A stretch of DNA of 64,000 bases from Escherichia coli (GCF_003790525.1 NZ_CP033635.1), one strand, 5' to 3'; shown: positions 28,701 to 34,700, numbered from the stretch's first letter. Numbers: made by a program.

Positions 28701-31700
28701 ATCAACGTAATATGTCAATAATTAATTCCACGCCAGTGCGTGTTATTGCCATTGTAGGATGTGATGGTTCAGGTAAATCGACCCTCACGGCAAGCCTGGT
28801 AAATGAACTGGCAGCAACAATGCCAACAGAACACATTTATCTCGGGCAATCGTCCGGGCGAATTGGCGAATGGATTTCACAGCTCCCTGTTATTGGCGCA
28901 CCTTTTGGGCGTTATCTGCGAAGTAAAGCGGCACATGTGCACGAAAAGCCCTTAACACCGCCTGGCAATATTACTGCGCTGGTTATCTATCTGCTTTCCT
29001 GCTGGCGGGCGTACAAGTTTCGCAAAATGTTGTGTAAAAGCCAGCAAGGCTATCTGCTCATCACCGACCGCTACCCGCAGGTTGAAGTGCCGGGTTTTCG
29101 CTTTGATGGCCCGCAATTGGCAAAAACCACGGGCGGTAACGGTTGGATAAAAATGTTAAGGCAGCGCGAGCTGAAGCTGTACCAATGGATGGCGTCTTAT
29201 TTGCCCGTATTGTTGATTCGTCTTGGCATTGATGAACAAACCGCGTTTGCGCGTAAACCTGACCACCAACTGGCAGCGTTACAGGAAAAAATCGCCGTTA
29301 CGCCGCAACTGACATTCAATGGCGCAAAGATCCTTGAACTGGATGGTCGGCAACCAGCCGATGAAATTCTGCAAGCGTCACTACGCGCAATTCACGCTGC
29401 GCTTTCCTGATCACCAAAATGGATAGGGGATGATTTAACGAATGGACGCACTACAAACACAAACTGTTAATAGTACAACCGCGCCGCAGCCCAACTACAT
29501 TCCGGGGCTGATTGCGGTGGTCGGGTGTGATGGCACCGGTAAATCCACACTGACCACCGACCTGGTGAAATCGCTGCAACAACACTGGCAAACCGAGCGG
29601 CGCTATCTGGGGCTGCTCTCGGGCGAAGACGGCGACAAAATCAAACGATTGCCGTTGGTTGGCGTCTGGCTCGAAAGGCGACTGGCGGCCAAATCATCGA
29701 AAACCCAAAGCATGAAAACCAAATCTCCAGCGCTATGGGCGGCGGTGATTATGTACTGCTTCTCGCTGCGAAGAATGGCGAATCTACGCAAGGTTCAGCG
29801 ACTGGCGCAAAGTGGCGTTCTGGTGGTCAGCGATCGCTTCCCGCAGGCTGAAATTTCGGGCTTTTATTATGACGGACCGGGGATCGGCGTCGAACGTGCG
29901 ACCGGGAAAATCAGCATGTTTCTGGCGCAGCGCGAACGGCGTTTATACCAACAAATGGCGCAATACCGTCCTGAATTAATCATTCGTTTGGGGATTGATA
30001 TTGATACTGCCATTTCCCGCAAGCCTGACCATGACTATGCCGAATTGCAGGACAAAATCGGCGTCATGTCGACGATTGGCTATAACGGCACAAAAATTCT
30101 TGAGATTGATTCCAGAGCGCCTTACAGCGAAGTGCTGGAACAGGCACAGAAGGCGGTTTCTCTGGTTGCCATCGTTTCTGACCGCCGAAGTTTAACTTAA
30201 GGCTGGCGGGATACTTTTTACTATCAACGATAAGGTCAGGCTGAATTGGCGGGTTTTAACATCAAACATTGGTTTGCAGATGGCGCGTTTCGCACCATTA
30301 TTCGCAATAGCGCCTGGTTAGGCTCCAGTAATGTCGTGAGCGCTTTACTGGGTCTGTTGGCGCTCTCGTGTGCCGGTAAAGGGATGACGCCCGCCATGTT
30401 TGGCGTACTGGTGATTGTGCAATCGTACGCCAAGTCGATCAGCGATTTTATTAAGTTTCAGACATGGCAGTTGGTGGTGCAGTACGGAACGCCAGCCTTG
30501 ACCAACAATAATCCGCAGCAATTTCGCAATGTCGTCTCATTTTCCTTCTCGCTGGATATCGTCAGCGGCGCGGTGGCGATTGTCGGCGGCATTGCCTTAC
30601 TCCCTTTTCTTTCCCATTCATTAGGTCTGGATGACCAAAGCTTTTGGCTGGCAGCGCTGTATTGCACGCTCATTCCTTCAATGGCTTCCTCCACGCCGAC
30701 CGGCATTCTGCGTGCGGTAGATCGCTTCGATCTAATTGCTGTACAGCAAGCGACGAAACCTTTTCTGCGTGCAGCGGGGAGCGTCGTAGCCTGGTATTTT
30801 GACTTTGGTTTTGCGGGTTTTGTTATTGCCTGGTACGTGTCGAATCTGGTTGGCGGCACCATGTACTGGTGGTTTGCCGCGCGCGAATTACGCCGCAGAA
30901 ATATCCATAACGCCTTCAAATTGAATCTGTTTGAGTCTGCCCGACACATTAAAGGCGCGTGGAGTTTTGTCTGGTCAACCAACATTGCCCACTCCATCTG
31001 GTCGGCGCGTAACTCGTGCAGCACAGTGCTGGTGGGGATCGTGTTAGGACCCGCTGCCGCCGGGTTATTTAAAATCGCCATGACATTCTTCGACGCCGCC
31101 GGAACGCCAGCGGGTTTACTGGGCAAAAGTTTTTACCCAGAGGTGATGCGTTTAGATCCGCGCACCACCAGACCGTGGTTGTTAGGCGTGAAGTCAGGTT
31201 TACTGGCGGGCGGAATCGGTATTCTGGTGGCGCTCGCGGTGTTGATTGTCGGCAAGCCGCTCATTTCGCTGGTGTTTGGCGTTAAGTATCTCGAAGCGTA
31301 TGACCTGATTCAGGTGATGCTGGGCGCAATTGTGATCTCGATGCTGGGCTTCCCTCAGGAGTCATTGCTATTGATGGCGGGAAAACAGCGCGCTTTTCTC
31401 GTGGCGCAAACCATCGCCTCAATCGGCTACATCGTATTGCTGTTCATGTTCTGTCATCTGTTTGGCGTGCTGGGAGCAGCGTTTGCTTATTTCGGCGGTC
31501 AATGTCTGGATGTGGTGCTCTCGCTAATTCCAACCTTAAGGGCATTTTTTCAGCGCCATTCCTTGCTTTATAACGCAGCCGGAGAGAAATCCTGATGATG
31601 AGAAAATATTTCCCGCTTGAGGCTAGCGAGCGTCTATTTGTTGCGATTGAAGAAGATGATGTCGTTGATGCACAGGTCAGTTTGCCGCCGACTATCGCAC

Positions 31701-34700
31701 TAAGTTGTACCACCGAAATCATCCATGATAATTACGCGTTATGCCTGCAATTCTGGCTCAATGGCGTCAATCGCCAGGAGTTACTGCGTTTAATATGCAA
31801 ACAGGCCAAAGGCGATGAGCTGACTGCTGATGAGCGCAAACAATTTAAATACATGCGAGCGCGCTACAAGCACCTGCGTTTTGCGCAACGGCTGTATTTA
31901 AAGAAGCATCAGGCCGGATTTTTATTCGGTAAAACGACCGTTTTTTTGGGGCGTTTTCAGGACGGCTTTCGTAACGGTAAGAAAAATATTGTGTCGTATT
32001 ACGGCAACCTGTTACGGGTTTATTTAAGCTCTCCGGTCTGGTCGTTGGTGAACTATTCATTACGCCATAGCCAGTTAGAAAGCGTAAGCGGTTTTATTGC
32101 CTATCGGCAAAAGCAAATGCATACCCTGAAAGAGATAATTGCCAAACCGCGACTCACCGGCAGGGAATTTCATGATGTGCGAAAAATCATCAGCCAGCAG
32201 GTTTCTTATTACGACACCTTAAGATCGCTTGATCCTGAAAATAAAGAAGCGTTACAGATTTCCCGCTTCCTCGCCGCCATTAATGGCCTGATGGGGGATA
32301 AACATGACGACATGGTGGCGGATGATATGGAAAACCGCCATTCGTATGATGCACCGATGGCGCTGGATAGCGATATTCGTCAGCGCTTAGAACTGCTGAT
32401 TTCGCGTTTTCCTCTATAACCGGAGCAATGATGTCATCTCGTTTGATTATTGCGCTGGTTATCATGCTCTTAGCCTCGGGTGTGCAGGCACACAATTTCG
32501 TCACTGGCAAAACGGTTACCCCTGTTTATATCCAGGAAGGCGGCGAGCTGCTTCTGAATAGCGAAGACGAAATTCACTACCAAAAGTGGAACAGCACCCA
32601 ATTGGCGGGAAAAGTCCGCATTATTCAGTATATCGCCGGGCGTAAGTCGGCGAAGAAAAAGAACTCACTGTTAATTAAAGCGGTTGAAGCGGCAAACTTT
32701 CCGCAGGATCGTTTTCAGCCCACCACCATTGTGAACACCGATGATGCCATCTTTGGTACTGGCTATTTTGTCGTTGGCAAAATCGAAAAAAATAAACGCC
32801 GCTATCCGTGGGCGCAATTCGTTATTGACGGCAATGGACTGGGACGCGTTGCCTGGCGGTTGCCGGAGCAGAGTTCAACCATTCTGGTGCTGAATAAAGA
32901 CGGGCAAATTCAGTGGGCAAAGGACGGCAGCCTGACGCCGGAAGAGGTAGATCATGTCATTGCGCTGGCGCAGAAACTGATCAATGAATAAAAAATTCAA
33001 AGGATTGAGGGTGTTAGTGAGATGAAGCTGGTTGAACACTACATCATGCGTGGTACGCGCCGTCTGGTGCTGATTATCGTCGGTTTTCTGATCTTTATTT
33101 TCGCCAGCTACTCCGCACAGCGTTATCTGACCGAAGCGGCAAATGGGACCTTAGCTCTTGATGTTGTGCTGGATATCGTTTTCTACAAAGTGCTGATTGC
33201 ACTGGAGATGTTGTTACCTGTTGGTCTGTATGTGTCAGTTGGCGTGACGCTAGGGCAGATGTATACCGACTCGGAAATTACCGCTATCTCTGCGGCGGGG
33301 GGCAGTCCGGGACGCTTGTACAAAGCCGTTCTTTATCTGGCGATACCGCTAAGTATTTTTGTCACCCTTCTGTCGATGTATGGTCGGCCGTGGGCTTATG
33401 CGCAGATTTATCAACTGGAGCAACAGTCACAGTCGGAGCTGGATGTTCGCCAGTTGCGGGCAAAGAAATTTAACACTAACGATAACGGACGAATGATCCT
33501 TTCGCAGACGGTTGATCAGGATAATAATCGCCTGACTGACGCGCTGATTTATACTTCTACTGCCAATCGAACCCGCATTTTCCGCGCCCGTTCGGTTGAT
33601 GTGGTTGACCCATCACCTGAGAAACCGACCGTTATGTTGCATAACGGGACCGCCTATCTTCTCGATCATCAGGGGCGTGACGACAACGAACAGATCTACC
33701 GTAATCTGCAATTACATCTGAATCCGCTGGATCAAAGCCCTAACGTCAAACGCAAAGCAAAATCGGTCACGGAGCTGGCGCGCTCCGCCTTTCCTGCCGA
33801 TCATGCCGAACTGCAATGGCGACAAAGCCGTGGCCTGACAGCATTGTTGATGGCGCTGCTGGCCATTTCATTAAGTCGGGTAAAACCGCGGCAAGGGCGA
33901 TTTTCAACGTTATTGCCACTGACGTTGCTGTTTGTTGCCATTTTTTATGGCGGCGACGTCTGCCGTACGCTGGTGGCTAACGGTGCGATTCCCCTCATTC
34001 CTGGTTTGTGGTTAGTACCCGGACTCATGCTAATGGGCCTGCTGATGCTGGTCGCACGCGACTTCTCTTTGCTGCAGAAATTTTCCCGATGAATGTTTTC
34101 AGTCGCTATTTAATCCGTCATCTCTTTCTCGGTTTTGCCGCCGCCGCAGGGCTATTGCTGCCGCTTTTTACCACCTTCAACCTGATTAACGAACTGGATG
34201 ATGTCAGCCCGGGCGGTTATCGCTGGACTCTGGCGGTGCTGGTGGTGCTGATGACCTTACCGCGTACACTGGTCGAACTTTCGCCATTTATCGCATTATT
34301 GGGAGGGATTGTTGGCCTGGGGCAGTTATCGAAAAACAGTGAGCTTACCGCCATTCGCAGCACTGGGTTTTCTATCTTCCGTATTGCACTGGTGGCGCTG
34401 GTTGCCGGGATATTGTGGACTGTTTCGTTAGGCGCGATAGATGAGTGGGTGGCGTCGCCATTGCAGCAGCAGGCGCTGCAAATCAAATCGACTGCCACCG
34501 CGTTGGGGGAGGACGATGACATTACCGGCAATATGCTTTGGGCCAGGCGCGGTAATGAATTTGTGACGGTGAAATCGCTGAACGAGCAGGGCCAGCCTGT
34601 GGGCGTGGAGATATTTCATTATCGCGACGATCTCTCGCTCGAATCCTACATTTTTGCACGCAGTGCCTCCATTGAAGACGACAAAACGTGGATCCTGCAT

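What the first reader, a model, noticed from the sequence alone, without database searches (positions are those of the whole stretch)
30246..32991. Apparently full-length YghQ flippase coupled to an uncharacterised 274-aa protein and a YtfJ-like periplasmic protein
The yghQ frame here is open for up to 449 codons and its stop overlaps the ATG of the 274-aa ORF (TGATG), indicating co-translation. I recall K-12 YghQ as about 355 aa, which would fit a 3' truncation by the IS5 event. The 274-aa protein has no motif I recognise. The YtfJ-like protein has a signal peptide and would act in the periplasm.
Basis: partly seen in the sequence, partly recalled or inferred. Interest (0 to 1): 0.5.

Follow-up and report, generated by a model that had tools for sequence, protein, structure and literature searches.

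The report
Flippase, CHAD-like, YtfJ-like sphingolipid-locus genes
These three E. coli genes are real and conserved, lie in the middle of the sphingolipid (ceramide) synthesis and export locus that K-12 lost to an IS5-linked deletion, and the "unknown" 274-aa protein turns out to be a divergent member of the phosphate-polymer-binding CHAD fold.

Summary
The window is E. coli chromosome. yghQ is open for 449 codons (30246-31595, TTG start). Its TGA shares one base with the ATG of a 274-codon ORF (31595-32419). A YtfJ-family gene follows (32428-32991). K-12 YghQ stops at codon 355 because 8,386 bp (window 31315-39700) are replaced by IS5.

The trio is the core of a yghS-yghR-yghQ-274aa-ytfJ2-lptF2-lptG2 gene string. 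That string lies beside spt, acpR, cerR, aasR and yghO (ceramide synthase homologue), which form the E. coli sphingolipid locus.

- **YghQ** belongs to the same Pfam family (PF01943) as CC_1166, the putative sphingolipid flippase of Caulobacter.
- **Linkage:** across 55 genomes it follows yghQ with a stop/start overlap and travels with spt and three dTMP-kinase-like paralogues.
- **YtfJ2** is an exported thioredoxin-fold protein with no cysteine.

All three genes are under purifying selection.

Most likely they form a cytoplasm-membrane-periplasm module that handles a phosphorylated ceramide. This is inferred, not shown. Interest is moderate. The locus is known, but the CHAD link is new.

The parts
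30246..31595 (+). yghQ, full length (449 codons, TTG start): MOP/Wzx-type 'Polysacc_synt' inner-membrane flippase-family protein
   Evidence: ORF. PGAP gives identical coordinates in CREC-544. Pfam PF01943 E 1.1e-8 and PF13440. NCBIfam MOP flippase match is weak, 34 bits. Orthologues are 444-452 aa. dN/dS 0.03.
31593..31597 (+). TGATG stop/start overlap between yghQ and the 274-aa gene
   Evidence: Read directly. Overlap or a gap of at most 4 nt is conserved in 49/51 related loci.
31595..32419 (+). 274-aa gene ('Ybl138' in UniProt): cytoplasmic, basic (pI 9.2), all-helical divergent CHAD-fold protein
32428..32991 (+). ytfJ2: exported YtfJ-family paralogue (PGAP starts it at 32431). Signal peptide is residues 1-21 (32428-32490). 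The mature protein has a thioredoxin-like fold and no cysteine.
31315..39700 (.). Segment absent from K-12 (replaced by IS5): the 3' 94 codons of yghQ, the 274-aa gene, ytfJ2, lptF2, lptG2, spt, acpR, cerR, aasR and the first 13 codons of yghO
   Evidence: blastn of the K-12 locus L002 against the window. Annotations.
27831..28523 (-). yghT, dTMP-kinase-like P-loop kinase paralogue (context)
28697..30200 (+). yghS (28697-29410) and yghR (29442-30200), dTMP-kinase-like paralogues directly upstream of yghQ (context, same strand)
   Evidence: Alignment A4 keeps GxDGxGKST, DRYP and ARKPDH in all three paralogues. The profile hits thymidylate kinases at E 4e-6.
33022..35168 (+). lptF2 (33022-34092) and lptG2 (34089-35168): second copies of the LPS-export permeases (context, same strand, 4-nt overlap)
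   Evidence: TIGR04407 319.8 bits and TIGR04408 301.6 bits. The Caulobacter counterparts are required when sphingolipid is made (bioRxiv 10.64898/2026.04.12.717747).
35203..40803 (.). Ceramide synthesis genes: spt 35203-36375(-), acpR 36375-36623(-), cerR-like 36655-37569(-), aasR 37566-39290(-), yghO/bCerS homologue 39661-40803(+)
   Evidence: PGAP names. The E. coli BL21 Spt, AcpR and AasR were characterised biochemically, and yghO was assigned as the N-acyltransferase homologue, in PMC9386255.

Best explanation
The three genes are the conserved core of the transport and head-group part of the E. coli sphingolipid locus.

**Shown:**
- They sit in one co-directional, tightly packed gene string, yghS-yghR-yghQ-274aa-ytfJ2-lptF2-lptG2. 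Next to it are the ceramide genes spt, acpR, cerR, aasR and yghO.
- K-12 lost the region from yghQ codon 356 to yghO codon 13 in an IS5-linked deletion.
- The same gene set travels together in Enterobacterales, Rhodanobacteraceae and Carnimonas.

**Inferred mechanism:**
1. Ceramide made at the cytoplasmic face of the inner membrane is given an anionic, phosphate-containing head group. The three dTMP-kinase-like paralogues YghT, YghS and YghR probably do this.
2. The basic CHAD-fold 274-aa protein is made in fixed ratio with YghQ through translational coupling. It binds the phosphate-rich head group or its donor at the cytoplasmic face and hands the lipid to YghQ, or gates YghQ.
3. YghQ is a Wzx-like MOP flippase that moves the lipid to the periplasmic leaflet.
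4. The exported, redox-dead thioredoxin-fold protein YtfJ2 acts on or receives the head group on the periplasmic side.
5. LptF2/G2, presumably powered by LptB, extract the lipid for delivery to the outer membrane.
For: **Locus identity.** PGAP annotation. Biochemistry of E. coli Spt, AcpR and AasR, with yghO assigned as the acyltransferase (PMC9386255). The E. coli UTI89 'sphingolipid operon' is drawn in bioRxiv 10.64898/2026.04.12.717747.

**Synteny.** In 55 genome loci, yghQ lies immediately upstream of the 274-aa gene wherever upstream DNA is held, except in Carnimonas. spt, cerR, aasR, yghO and yghRST lie within 10 kb in 49 of 55 loci; five of the others are cut by the ends of the DNA held, and the sixth (L054) is the second Carnimonas copy. 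ytfJ2 follows the 274-aa gene in all Enterobacterales, even where lptF2/G2 have moved to the other side.

**Coupling.** The stop/start overlap is conserved.

**YghQ.** PF01943, the same InterPro family (IPR002797) as CC_1166, the putative Caulobacter sphingolipid flippase (PMC11324152 S1 Text).

**274-aa protein.**
- CHAD fold, with sequence bridging to Pfam CHAD.
- pI 9.2, with K85-x2-R88-x3-K92-x2-R95 and H193-x2-R196-K197 conserved in 59 diverse relatives. These parallel the polyP-contacting H-x2-R-x3-R triads of CtCHAD and SsCHAD (PMC6537752).
- Relatives at 26-41% identity occur in Sphingomonas, Zymomonas, Acetobacter and Gluconobacter. Of these genera, PMC9386255 names Sphingomonas, Zymomonas and Gluconobacter as carrying spt.
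- One lineage fuses the domain to an APH-type kinase.

**Precedent for kinase plus CHAD.** In Sulfolobus, paralogous dTMP-kinase-like proteins share an operon with a CHAD protein (PPK3, PMC12995831).

**YtfJ2.**

**LptF2/G2 role.** Shown in Caulobacter.

**Purifying selection** on all three genes.
Against: - No lipid product of this locus has been reported from E. coli under native expression in the papers I could search. The E. coli enzymes were only shown to work when overexpressed.
- No experiment links YghQ, the 274-aa protein or YtfJ2 to any lipid.
- The E. coli 274-aa protein itself gets no Pfam CHAD hit. hhalign against the YgiF CHAD gave nothing.
- Characterised CHAD domains bind long polyP and not other phosphate ligands (PMC6537752). 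Binding to a lipid head group would therefore be a new specificity.
- The Caulobacter sphingolipid cluster as described has no CHAD gene and uses a different, DAG-kinase-type ceramide kinase, so the head-group chemistry cannot simply be copied over.
- Distant relatives of the 274-aa protein are not visibly next to spt, and some are secreted.
- The YghQ start in Escherichia is a weak TTG, so expression may be low.
Confidence: 0.5

Rival explanations
1. Classical polyphosphate module. YghT/S/R form a PPK3-like polyphosphate kinase, and the 274-aa protein is an ordinary CHAD 'phosin' that binds cytoplasmic polyP. The link to sphingolipid genes would be regulatory or about phosphate economy rather than mechanistic, for example next to the phosphate transporter pitB.
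For: CHAD fold with the basic motifs retained. Known CHADs bind polyP specifically. The Sulfolobus PPK3 operon pairs two dTMP-kinase-like paralogues with a CHAD protein, and PPK3 neighbourhoods include phosphate transporters. pitB abuts yghT in Escherichia, Citrobacter, Hafnia and Pseudocitrobacter.
Against: The 274-aa gene is translationally coupled to a membrane flippase, not to the kinases. It always travels with spt, cerR, aasR and yghO. pitB adjacency is absent in Serratia, Erwinia, Pantoea, Rosenbergiella and Rhodanobacteraceae. The YghR/S/T profile shows no special affinity to the PPK3 homologue 5h70 (E 0.03, P-loop only), while thymidylate kinases score E 4e-6. No ppx, sixA or TTM gene lies in the locus. 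From general knowledge, E. coli already has PPK1 and PPX.
Confidence: 0.12
2. The 274-aa protein is an enzyme, not a binding module. Its family-wide invariant His and Asp residues (H105, D123, H193, H237-D238) would form a metal or catalytic site for a phosphotransfer or phosphohydrolase step in head-group synthesis.
For: D123, H193, R196 and D238 are invariant, and H105 and H237 nearly so, in 59 relatives at down to about 20% identity. This is a pattern more typical of active sites. The domain is fused to an APH-type kinase in one lineage. No other head-group transferase is evident in the E. coli locus.
Against: No catalytic activity is known for any CHAD domain, and metal binding was judged unlikely for them (PMC6537752). 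The closest structural matches are all non-catalytic CHADs. I could not map the residues onto the model, so their clustering in space is untested.
Confidence: 0.15
3. YghQ is a flippase for an undecaprenyl-linked glycan (Wzx-like), unrelated to ceramide. The 274-aa and YtfJ-like genes would be unrelated passengers.
For: PF01943 and PF13440 are polysaccharide-export families. The best NCBIfam hit is the MOP flippase model PRK10459. PGAP names the gene 'lipopolysaccharide biosynthesis protein'.
Against: No glycosyltransferase, polymerase or chain-length gene lies in the locus. The NCBIfam score is 34 bits against a cutoff of 273, so it is not an orthologue of that exporter. There is invariant linkage to spt genes across three orders. 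The Caulobacter sphingolipid locus carries a flippase of the same family.
Confidence: 0.08
4. The locus is a decaying remnant in E. coli. The three ORFs are conserved by descent only and have no present function.
For: K-12 and about a quarter of complete genomes lack all or part of it. The YghQ start is a TTG that replaced the ancestral ATG. No native product has been reported.
Against: dN/dS is 0.03-0.15 for all genes of the string. The frames are intact in 4127 of 5426 genomes. The gene set is conserved over orders.
Confidence: 0.05

Closest known systems
Caulobacter crescentus sphingolipid locus CC_1152-CC_1168 (ceramide genes, Cpg head-group genes, putative flippase CC_1166, LptF2/G2/C2)
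   Same: It has the same five ceramide genes, a PF01943/IPR002797 flippase-family gene and a second LptF/LptG pair in one locus. LptF2/G2 are needed once sphingolipid is made (PMC11324152; bioRxiv 10.64898/2026.04.12.717747).
   Different: E. coli has no CpgA-D, CC_1153 or CC_1158 type genes and no LptC2. It has instead three dTMP-kinase-like paralogues, a CHAD-fold protein and a YtfJ paralogue. CpgB is a DAG-kinase-type enzyme, not a P-loop kinase. The product in E. coli is unknown.
CHAD domain proteins (Pfam PF05235; RcCHAD 6qv5, CtCHAD 3e0s, PptA 6rn5, YgiF 5a61)
   Different: The E. coli protein is below Pfam detection. It is coupled to a membrane flippase inside a lipid locus, not to PPK, PPX or TTM genes. 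It has extra invariant D123, H105 and H237-D238. Its ligand is untested.
PPK3 operon of Sulfolobus acidocaldarius (ppx, sixA, two dTMP-kinase-like subunits, CHAD; PMC12995831)
   Same: Several paralogous dTMP-kinase-superfamily proteins are encoded together with a CHAD-fold protein.
   Different: There is no ppx or sixA here, and there are three paralogues rather than two. No specific sequence affinity to the PPK3 structure homologue 5h70 was found. The locus also holds lipid and transport genes.
YtfJ (b4216) / HI0045 family, TIGR01626 / PF09695
   Same: 55% identity, the same length and the same signal peptide type. It is a true family member.
   Different: It is a second copy placed inside the sphingolipid locus. 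The family has no known function, so membership gives no mechanism.
Wzx / MOP flippases (for example the PRK10459 colanic-acid-type exporter)
   Same: The same Pfam families and a multi-span membrane protein of about 450 aa.
   Different: The score is far below the equivalog cutoff. There are no glycan genes nearby. The presumed substrate is a ceramide-based lipid rather than an undecaprenyl-linked sugar.

Membership tests
MOP/Wzx 'Polysacc_synt' flippase family (PF01943) | Significant match to the family HMM over most of the protein | tested here: met
   PF01943 E 1.1e-8 over residues 19-280, with a second weak repeat at 316-437. PF13440 E 1.2e-7.
MOP/Wzx 'Polysacc_synt' flippase family (PF01943) | 12-14 transmembrane helices | tested here: inconclusive
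   A crude 19-residue hydropathy scan finds hydrophobic stretches along the whole protein, including 3-4 after residue 355, but cannot count helices.
MOP/Wzx 'Polysacc_synt' flippase family (PF01943) | Orthology to a named exporter (NCBIfam PRK10459 equivalog) | tested here: not met
   34.2 bits against a cutoff of 273.
CHAD domain (PF05235) | Match to the Pfam HMM | tested here: not met
   The E. coli protein has no hit. Among 59 relatives, 4 hit at E<=1e-3 and 14 at E<=0.1, best 2.5e-5. The fused relative P0234 hits at E 0.0027.
CHAD domain (PF05235) | Fold of two helical bundles | tested here: met
CHAD domain (PF05235) | Conserved basic H-x2-R-x3-R type helix motifs that contact polyP | tested here: inconclusive
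   K85/R88/K92/R95 and H193/R196/K197 are conserved and resemble CtCHAD H253/R256/R260. No residue-level structural superposition was available to prove equivalence.
CHAD domain (PF05235) | Binds inorganic polyphosphate | not testable with these tools
   Needs purified protein and binding assays.
CHAD domain (PF05235) | Genomic association with polyP enzymes (PPK, PPX, TTM) | tested here: not met
   None of these lie in the locus. Only dTMP-kinase-like paralogues are present.
YtfJ_HI0045 family (TIGR01626) | Score above the curated cutoff over the full length | tested here: met
   216.5 bits against 151.1, residues 2-185 of 187. 55% identity to K-12 YtfJ.
YtfJ_HI0045 family (TIGR01626) | N-terminal Sec signal peptide (periplasmic location) | tested here: met
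   A hydrophobic N-terminus ending A-x-A|HNF is conserved in 47 orthologues. Export itself was not tested.
Thiol-disulfide oxidoreductases of the TlpA/DsbE/ResA type | Thioredoxin-like fold | tested here: met
Thiol-disulfide oxidoreductases of the TlpA/DsbE/ResA type | CXXC (or peroxidatic Cys) active site | tested here: not met
   The mature protein has no cysteine. An invariant A70-G71-R72...K76 segment follows the strand at 63-70.
Bacterial sphingolipid locus (spt, acpR, aasR, cerR, bCerS) | All five ceramide genes adjacent | tested here: met
   PGAP names. Gene-by-gene assignment for E. coli BL21 in PMC9386255. Co-located in 49/55 related loci.
Bacterial sphingolipid locus (spt, acpR, aasR, cerR, bCerS) | Production of a sphingolipid by the native host | not testable with these tools
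   Only heterologous or overexpression data were found.
PPK3 (dTMP-kinase-derived polyphosphate kinase) | Catalytic plus regulatory dTMPK-like paralogues specifically related to Saci_2019/2020 | tested here: inconclusive
   YghR/S/T are mutual paralogues at 30-40% identity that keep the P-loop and DRYP motifs. Their profile hits thymidylate kinases at E 4e-6, but the PPK3 homologue 5h70 only at E 0.03, P-loop only.

The most novel reading that the evidence does not exclude
YghT, YghS and YghR, together with the CHAD-fold protein, build and hold an oligo- or polyphosphate head group on ceramide. This 'ceramide polyphosphate' is then flipped by YghQ, handled by YtfJ2 in the periplasm and exported by LptB-F2G2. 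Most wild E. coli and many Enterobacterales would then carry a previously unseen, highly anionic sphingolipid in their outer membrane, one that laboratory K-12 cannot make.
Probability: 0.1. Interest if true: 0.85.

Novelty: new variant of a known kind. Interest (0 to 1): 0.5.

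Why it matters
About three quarters of complete E. coli genomes, and many Enterobacterales, carry a full sphingolipid synthesis and export locus that K-12 lacks. Almost all E. coli envelope biology has therefore been done in a strain that cannot make this lipid. Nobody has yet said what the E. coli product is or how it crosses the inner membrane.

This analysis names three concrete candidates for that step and gives each a testable property:
- a Wzx-like flippase;
- a CHAD-fold partner with a defined basic motif, translationally coupled to the flippase;
- a cysteine-free periplasmic thioredoxin-fold protein.

The pairing of a CHAD fold with three dTMP-kinase-like paralogues points to a phosphate-rich head group. 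In Caulobacter, an anionic sphingolipid of this general kind determines polymyxin sensitivity, detergent resistance and survival without LPS. The analysis also extends the CHAD fold, so far tied only to polyphosphate granules, into a lipid locus.

Tried and rejected
- **Sequence searches with the 274-aa protein.** Pfam and NCBIfam gave nothing, and a 20-sequence profile against all PDB sequences gave nothing at E<=10. The CHAD link came only from fold comparison and from scanning distant relatives one by one.
- **hhalign of the 59-sequence family against the E. coli YgiF CHAD region.** Probability 0.4%, uninformative, because YgiF has a short and degenerate CHAD.
- **YgiF against PDB, to collect CHAD sequences.** It found only itself and TTM domains.
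- **Single-sequence PDB searches with YghR, YghS and YghT.** No meaningful hits. Only the family profile reached thymidylate kinases. Pfam on YghR gave only generic P-loop hits.
- **Is the 274-aa protein the counterpart of Caulobacter CC_1167 or CC_1157?** Rejected. Those are a CDP-glycerol glycerophosphotransferase-like protein and a HIT protein.
- **Is YtfJ2 an LptC/LptA analogue?** Rejected as membership. Its fold is thioredoxin-like, not the Lpt beta-jellyroll.
- **Genomic context of distant relatives**. The contigs are short or noisy. A neighbouring PF12804 nucleotidyltransferase in two cases and a His_Phos_1 gene in one are hints only.
- **Anti-phage defence models and Rfam over 26-42 kb.** Nothing.
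- **Promoter and terminator scans.** Counts are at or below chance, so they are not used as evidence.
- **Literature.** One search (bCerS/CerR/E. coli) returned only unrelated papers. 'Ybl138' has no bacterial literature.

Full report
**1. What is in the sequence**

The window is E. coli chromosome. The 3.1 kb around the finding is 100% identical to strain CREC-544 and 95-99% identical to most other complete genomes. Three ORFs sit at the stated coordinates:
- yghQ, 30246-31595 on the + strand, 449 codons from a TTG.
- A 274-codon ORF, 31595-32419.
- A 187-codon ORF, 32428-32991.

Reading the DNA shows tccTGATGATGaga. The TGA of yghQ (31593-31595) shares its last base with the ATG of the next gene, and GGAG lies 11 nt upstream. 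RefSeq PGAP calls the same genes in CREC-544.

**2. The K-12 comparison**

K-12 aligns to the window up to position 31314 and again from 39701. Between these points K-12 has IS5, whose terminal GGAAGGTGCGAATAAG follows the homology directly. A TAG at the junction ends K-12 YghQ at residue 355.

The event was an 8,386-bp deletion, not a simple insertion. It removed the last 94 codons of yghQ, the 274-aa gene, the ytfJ-like gene, two lptF/lptG paralogues, spt, an acyl carrier protein gene, an SDR reductase gene, an acyl-AMP ligase gene and 13 codons of yghO. Of 5426 complete E. coli genomes, 4127 carry at least 80% of the segment.

**3. Context**

Downstream and convergent lie spt, acpR, cerR-like, aasR and then yghO. 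Padilla-Gomez et al. (PMC9386255) showed that the E. coli BL21 Spt, AcpR and AasR make 3-oxo-sphinganine. They assigned the reductase and YghO as the remaining ceramide genes.

A 2026 preprint draws the E. coli UTI89 'sphingolipid operon' next to those of Caulobacter and Sphingomonas. It shows that Caulobacter LptF2/G2 form a complex with LptB and can only be deleted when spt is absent.

Upstream of yghQ are three mutually paralogous P-loop proteins, YghT, YghS and YghR (30-40% identity). All three keep GxDGxGKST, DRYP and ARKPDH motifs. A family profile reaches thymidylate kinases at E 4e-6.

The gaps in yghS-yghR-yghQ-274-ytfJ2-lptF2-lptG2 are 31, 45, -1, 8, 30 and -4 nt, so one operon is likely. 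Promoter and terminator scans were at chance level and are not used.

**4. Are the genes real?**

Against other Escherichia lineages, dN/dS is 0.03 for yghQ, 0.06-0.07 for the 274-aa gene and 0.10-0.15 for ytfJ2. This is similar to lptF2/G2. The 274-aa protein has 343 homologues at E<=1e-3 in one database and 305 clusters at 50% identity in another.

**5. Synteny**

A scan of one genome per species found 55 loci. They come from Enterobacterales (Escherichia, Pseudocitrobacter, Citrobacter, Hafnia, Serratia, Sodalis, Pantoea, Erwinia, Rosenbergiella, Tatumella, Mangrovibacter and others), Rhodanobacteraceae (Luteibacter, Rhodanobacter, Dyella) and Carnimonas.

Mapping the E. coli proteins onto them shows four things:
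- yghQ lies immediately upstream of the 274-aa gene in every locus with upstream DNA, except Carnimonas.
- spt, cerR, aasR, yghO and yghRST lie within 10 kb in 49 loci. Five of the other six are cut by the ends of the DNA held. The sixth, L054, is a second Carnimonas copy with only a yghR-like gene nearby.
- ytfJ2 follows the 274-aa gene in all Enterobacterales, even where lptF2/G2 have moved to a divergent position upstream.
- Rhodanobacteraceae lack ytfJ2 and lptF2/G2 in the held DNA. In Dyella an MdtABC-like RND system lies between the 274-aa gene and yghO.

The stop/start overlap, or a gap of at most 4 nt, between yghQ and the 274-aa gene holds in 49 of 51 loci. Translational coupling is therefore a conserved trait, not an accident of this strain.

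**6. YghQ**

Pfam places it in Polysacc_synt (PF01943, E 1e-8) and Polysacc_synt_3. NCBIfam gives only a weak match to a MOP flippase model, far below its cutoff.

The putative sphingolipid flippase of Caulobacter, CC_1166, carries the same InterPro family, IPR002797 (PMC11324152 S1 Text). I could not obtain the Caulobacter sequence to compare directly.

Orthologues are 444-452 aa. In all other genera they begin MKxWFSDGAF at an ATG that is ATC in Escherichia. This leaves the upstream TTG as the only plausible start here.

**7. The 274-aa protein**

The E. coli sequence has no Pfam, NCBIfam or PDB sequence match. With a 20-sequence alignment, AlphaFold2 gives a confident all-helical model (pLDDT 88.9, pTM 0.86).

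Independent support comes from sequence. When 59 diverse relatives were scanned one by one, 4 hit Pfam CHAD at E<=1e-3 and 14 at E<=0.1. In AFDB, relatives at 26-41% identity are named CHAD domain proteins. They come from Sphingomonas, Zymomonas, Acetobacter, Gluconobacter, Komagataeibacter and Pseudomonas veronii. PMC9386255 names Sphingomonas, Zymomonas and Gluconobacter as carriers of spt.

The protein is basic (pI 9.2, family median 9.35). Across the 59 relatives:
- R88, D123, H193, R196 and D238 are invariant.
- K85, K92, R95, H105, K197 and H237 are nearly invariant.

This gives K-x2-R-x3-K-x2-R on one helix and H-x2-R-K on another. In CtCHAD and SsCHAD the polyP-contacting residues are H-x2-R-x3-R triads, H253/R256/R260 and H29/R32/R36 (PMC6537752). 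The correspondence is an inference from the pattern, because I had no residue-level superposition.

The closer relatives have no signal peptide. A divergent clade does have Sec or lipoprotein signals. One lineage fuses two copies of the domain to an APH-type phosphotransferase domain.

**8. YtfJ2**

It scores 216.5 bits on TIGR01626 (cutoff 151.1) and is 55% identical to K-12 YtfJ, a protein of unknown function. All 47 orthologues have an N-terminal signal peptide ending A-x-A before a conserved HNF.

**9. Mechanism**

*Shown:*
- Locus membership.
- Gene order and coupling.
- The folds.
- Purifying selection.
- The K-12 deletion.

*Inferred:*
- The head group. Ceramide receives a phosphate-containing head group from the dTMP-kinase-like trio.
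- The cytoplasmic partner. The CHAD-fold protein, made stoichiometrically with YghQ, binds that head group or its donor and presents the lipid to the flippase.
- Flipping. YghQ moves the lipid across the inner membrane.
- The periplasmic and export steps. YtfJ2 acts on the periplasmic side and LptF2/G2 extract the lipid.

The pairing of dTMP-kinase-like paralogues with a CHAD protein has a precedent in the Sulfolobus PPK3 operon (PMC12995831). However, the YghR/S/T profile shows no specific affinity to the PPK3 structural homologue 5h70. I therefore treat PPK3 as an analogy only.

**10. What argues against**

- I found no report of a native sphingolipid in E. coli.
- Known CHADs are specific for long polyP.
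- The Caulobacter locus has no CHAD gene and uses a different kinase type.
- Distant relatives of the 274-aa protein are not visibly next to spt.

**11. Verdict**

The three genes are ordinary in the sense that they belong to a locus now recognised in the literature. The new points are:
- The 'motif-less' protein is a divergent CHAD fold.
- It is translationally coupled to the locus flippase.
- With the YtfJ paralogue it forms a conserved three-compartment module.

I file this as a new variant of a known kind, of moderate interest. The more exciting reading, a polyphosphorylated ceramide, is possible but unsupported.

Noticed in passing
window 30246-30263: In every non-Escherichia genus YghQ begins at an ATG (MKxWFSDGAF) that corresponds to E. 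coli codon 6. Escherichia has ATC there and must start at the TTG five codons upstream, which suggests weak initiation.
   Followed up: yes
L053 10958-20037 (Dyella); similar spacing in L047, L050, L051: In Rhodanobacteraceae neither the ytfJ-like gene nor lptF2/G2 is found in the DNA held. In Dyella an MdtA/MdtB/MdtC-like RND efflux system lies between the 274-aa gene and yghO. This may be a swapped export module.
   Followed up: partly
L044 10001-11770, L050 9152-10816; protein P0122: Luteibacter carries two tandem copies of the 274-aa gene. One metagenomic protein (564 aa) is a fusion of two copies.
   Followed up: no
proteins P0191-P0267; P0234, P0237: A divergent clade of the 274-aa family has Sec or lipoprotein signal peptides, so this CHAD-like domain also works outside the cytoplasm. 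Two proteins of about 980 aa combine a signal peptide, an APH-type kinase domain and two copies of the domain.
   Followed up: partly
L054 and L057 (Carnimonas nigrificans): There are two copies of the 274-aa gene, neither preceded by yghQ. One sits between spt and yghO.
   Followed up: no
L036 (record titled Martelella alba): This contig, from a nominal alphaproteobacterium, has the Serratia-type gene order and 61-79% identity to the E. coli proteins. It is probably a misassigned or contaminating enterobacterial contig.
   Followed up: no
window 26283-27782 (pitB) next to yghT: The phosphate transporter gene pitB abuts the kinase paralogues in Escherichia, Citrobacter, Hafnia and Pseudocitrobacter but not in the other genera. 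It could bear on a phosphate-rich product or be chance.
   Followed up: partly
window 31500-32500: G+C drops to 0.45-0.47 over the 274-aa gene, against 0.52-0.55 in yghQ and the lpt genes. Synonymous divergence between Escherichia lineages is also highest for this gene (dS about 0.73).
   Followed up: no
window 30458-31126 (-): A 222-codon antisense ORF lies inside yghQ. It is not annotated by PGAP and is presumably spurious.
   Followed up: no
hit H25, E. coli strain E41: This strain keeps only the last 222 bp of the 3.1-kb query (the end of ytfJ2 and the start of lptF2). It is a second, independent deletion variant of the locus, different from the K-12 one.
   Followed up: no
L060-L063: Distant relatives of the 274-aa protein sit next to a PF12804 (MobA-like NTP transferase) gene. 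This is the family named for Caulobacter CC_1153, and PF12804 is apparently also among the domains listed for CC_1152; both are needed for the second phosphoglycerate of its sphingolipid.
   Followed up: partly
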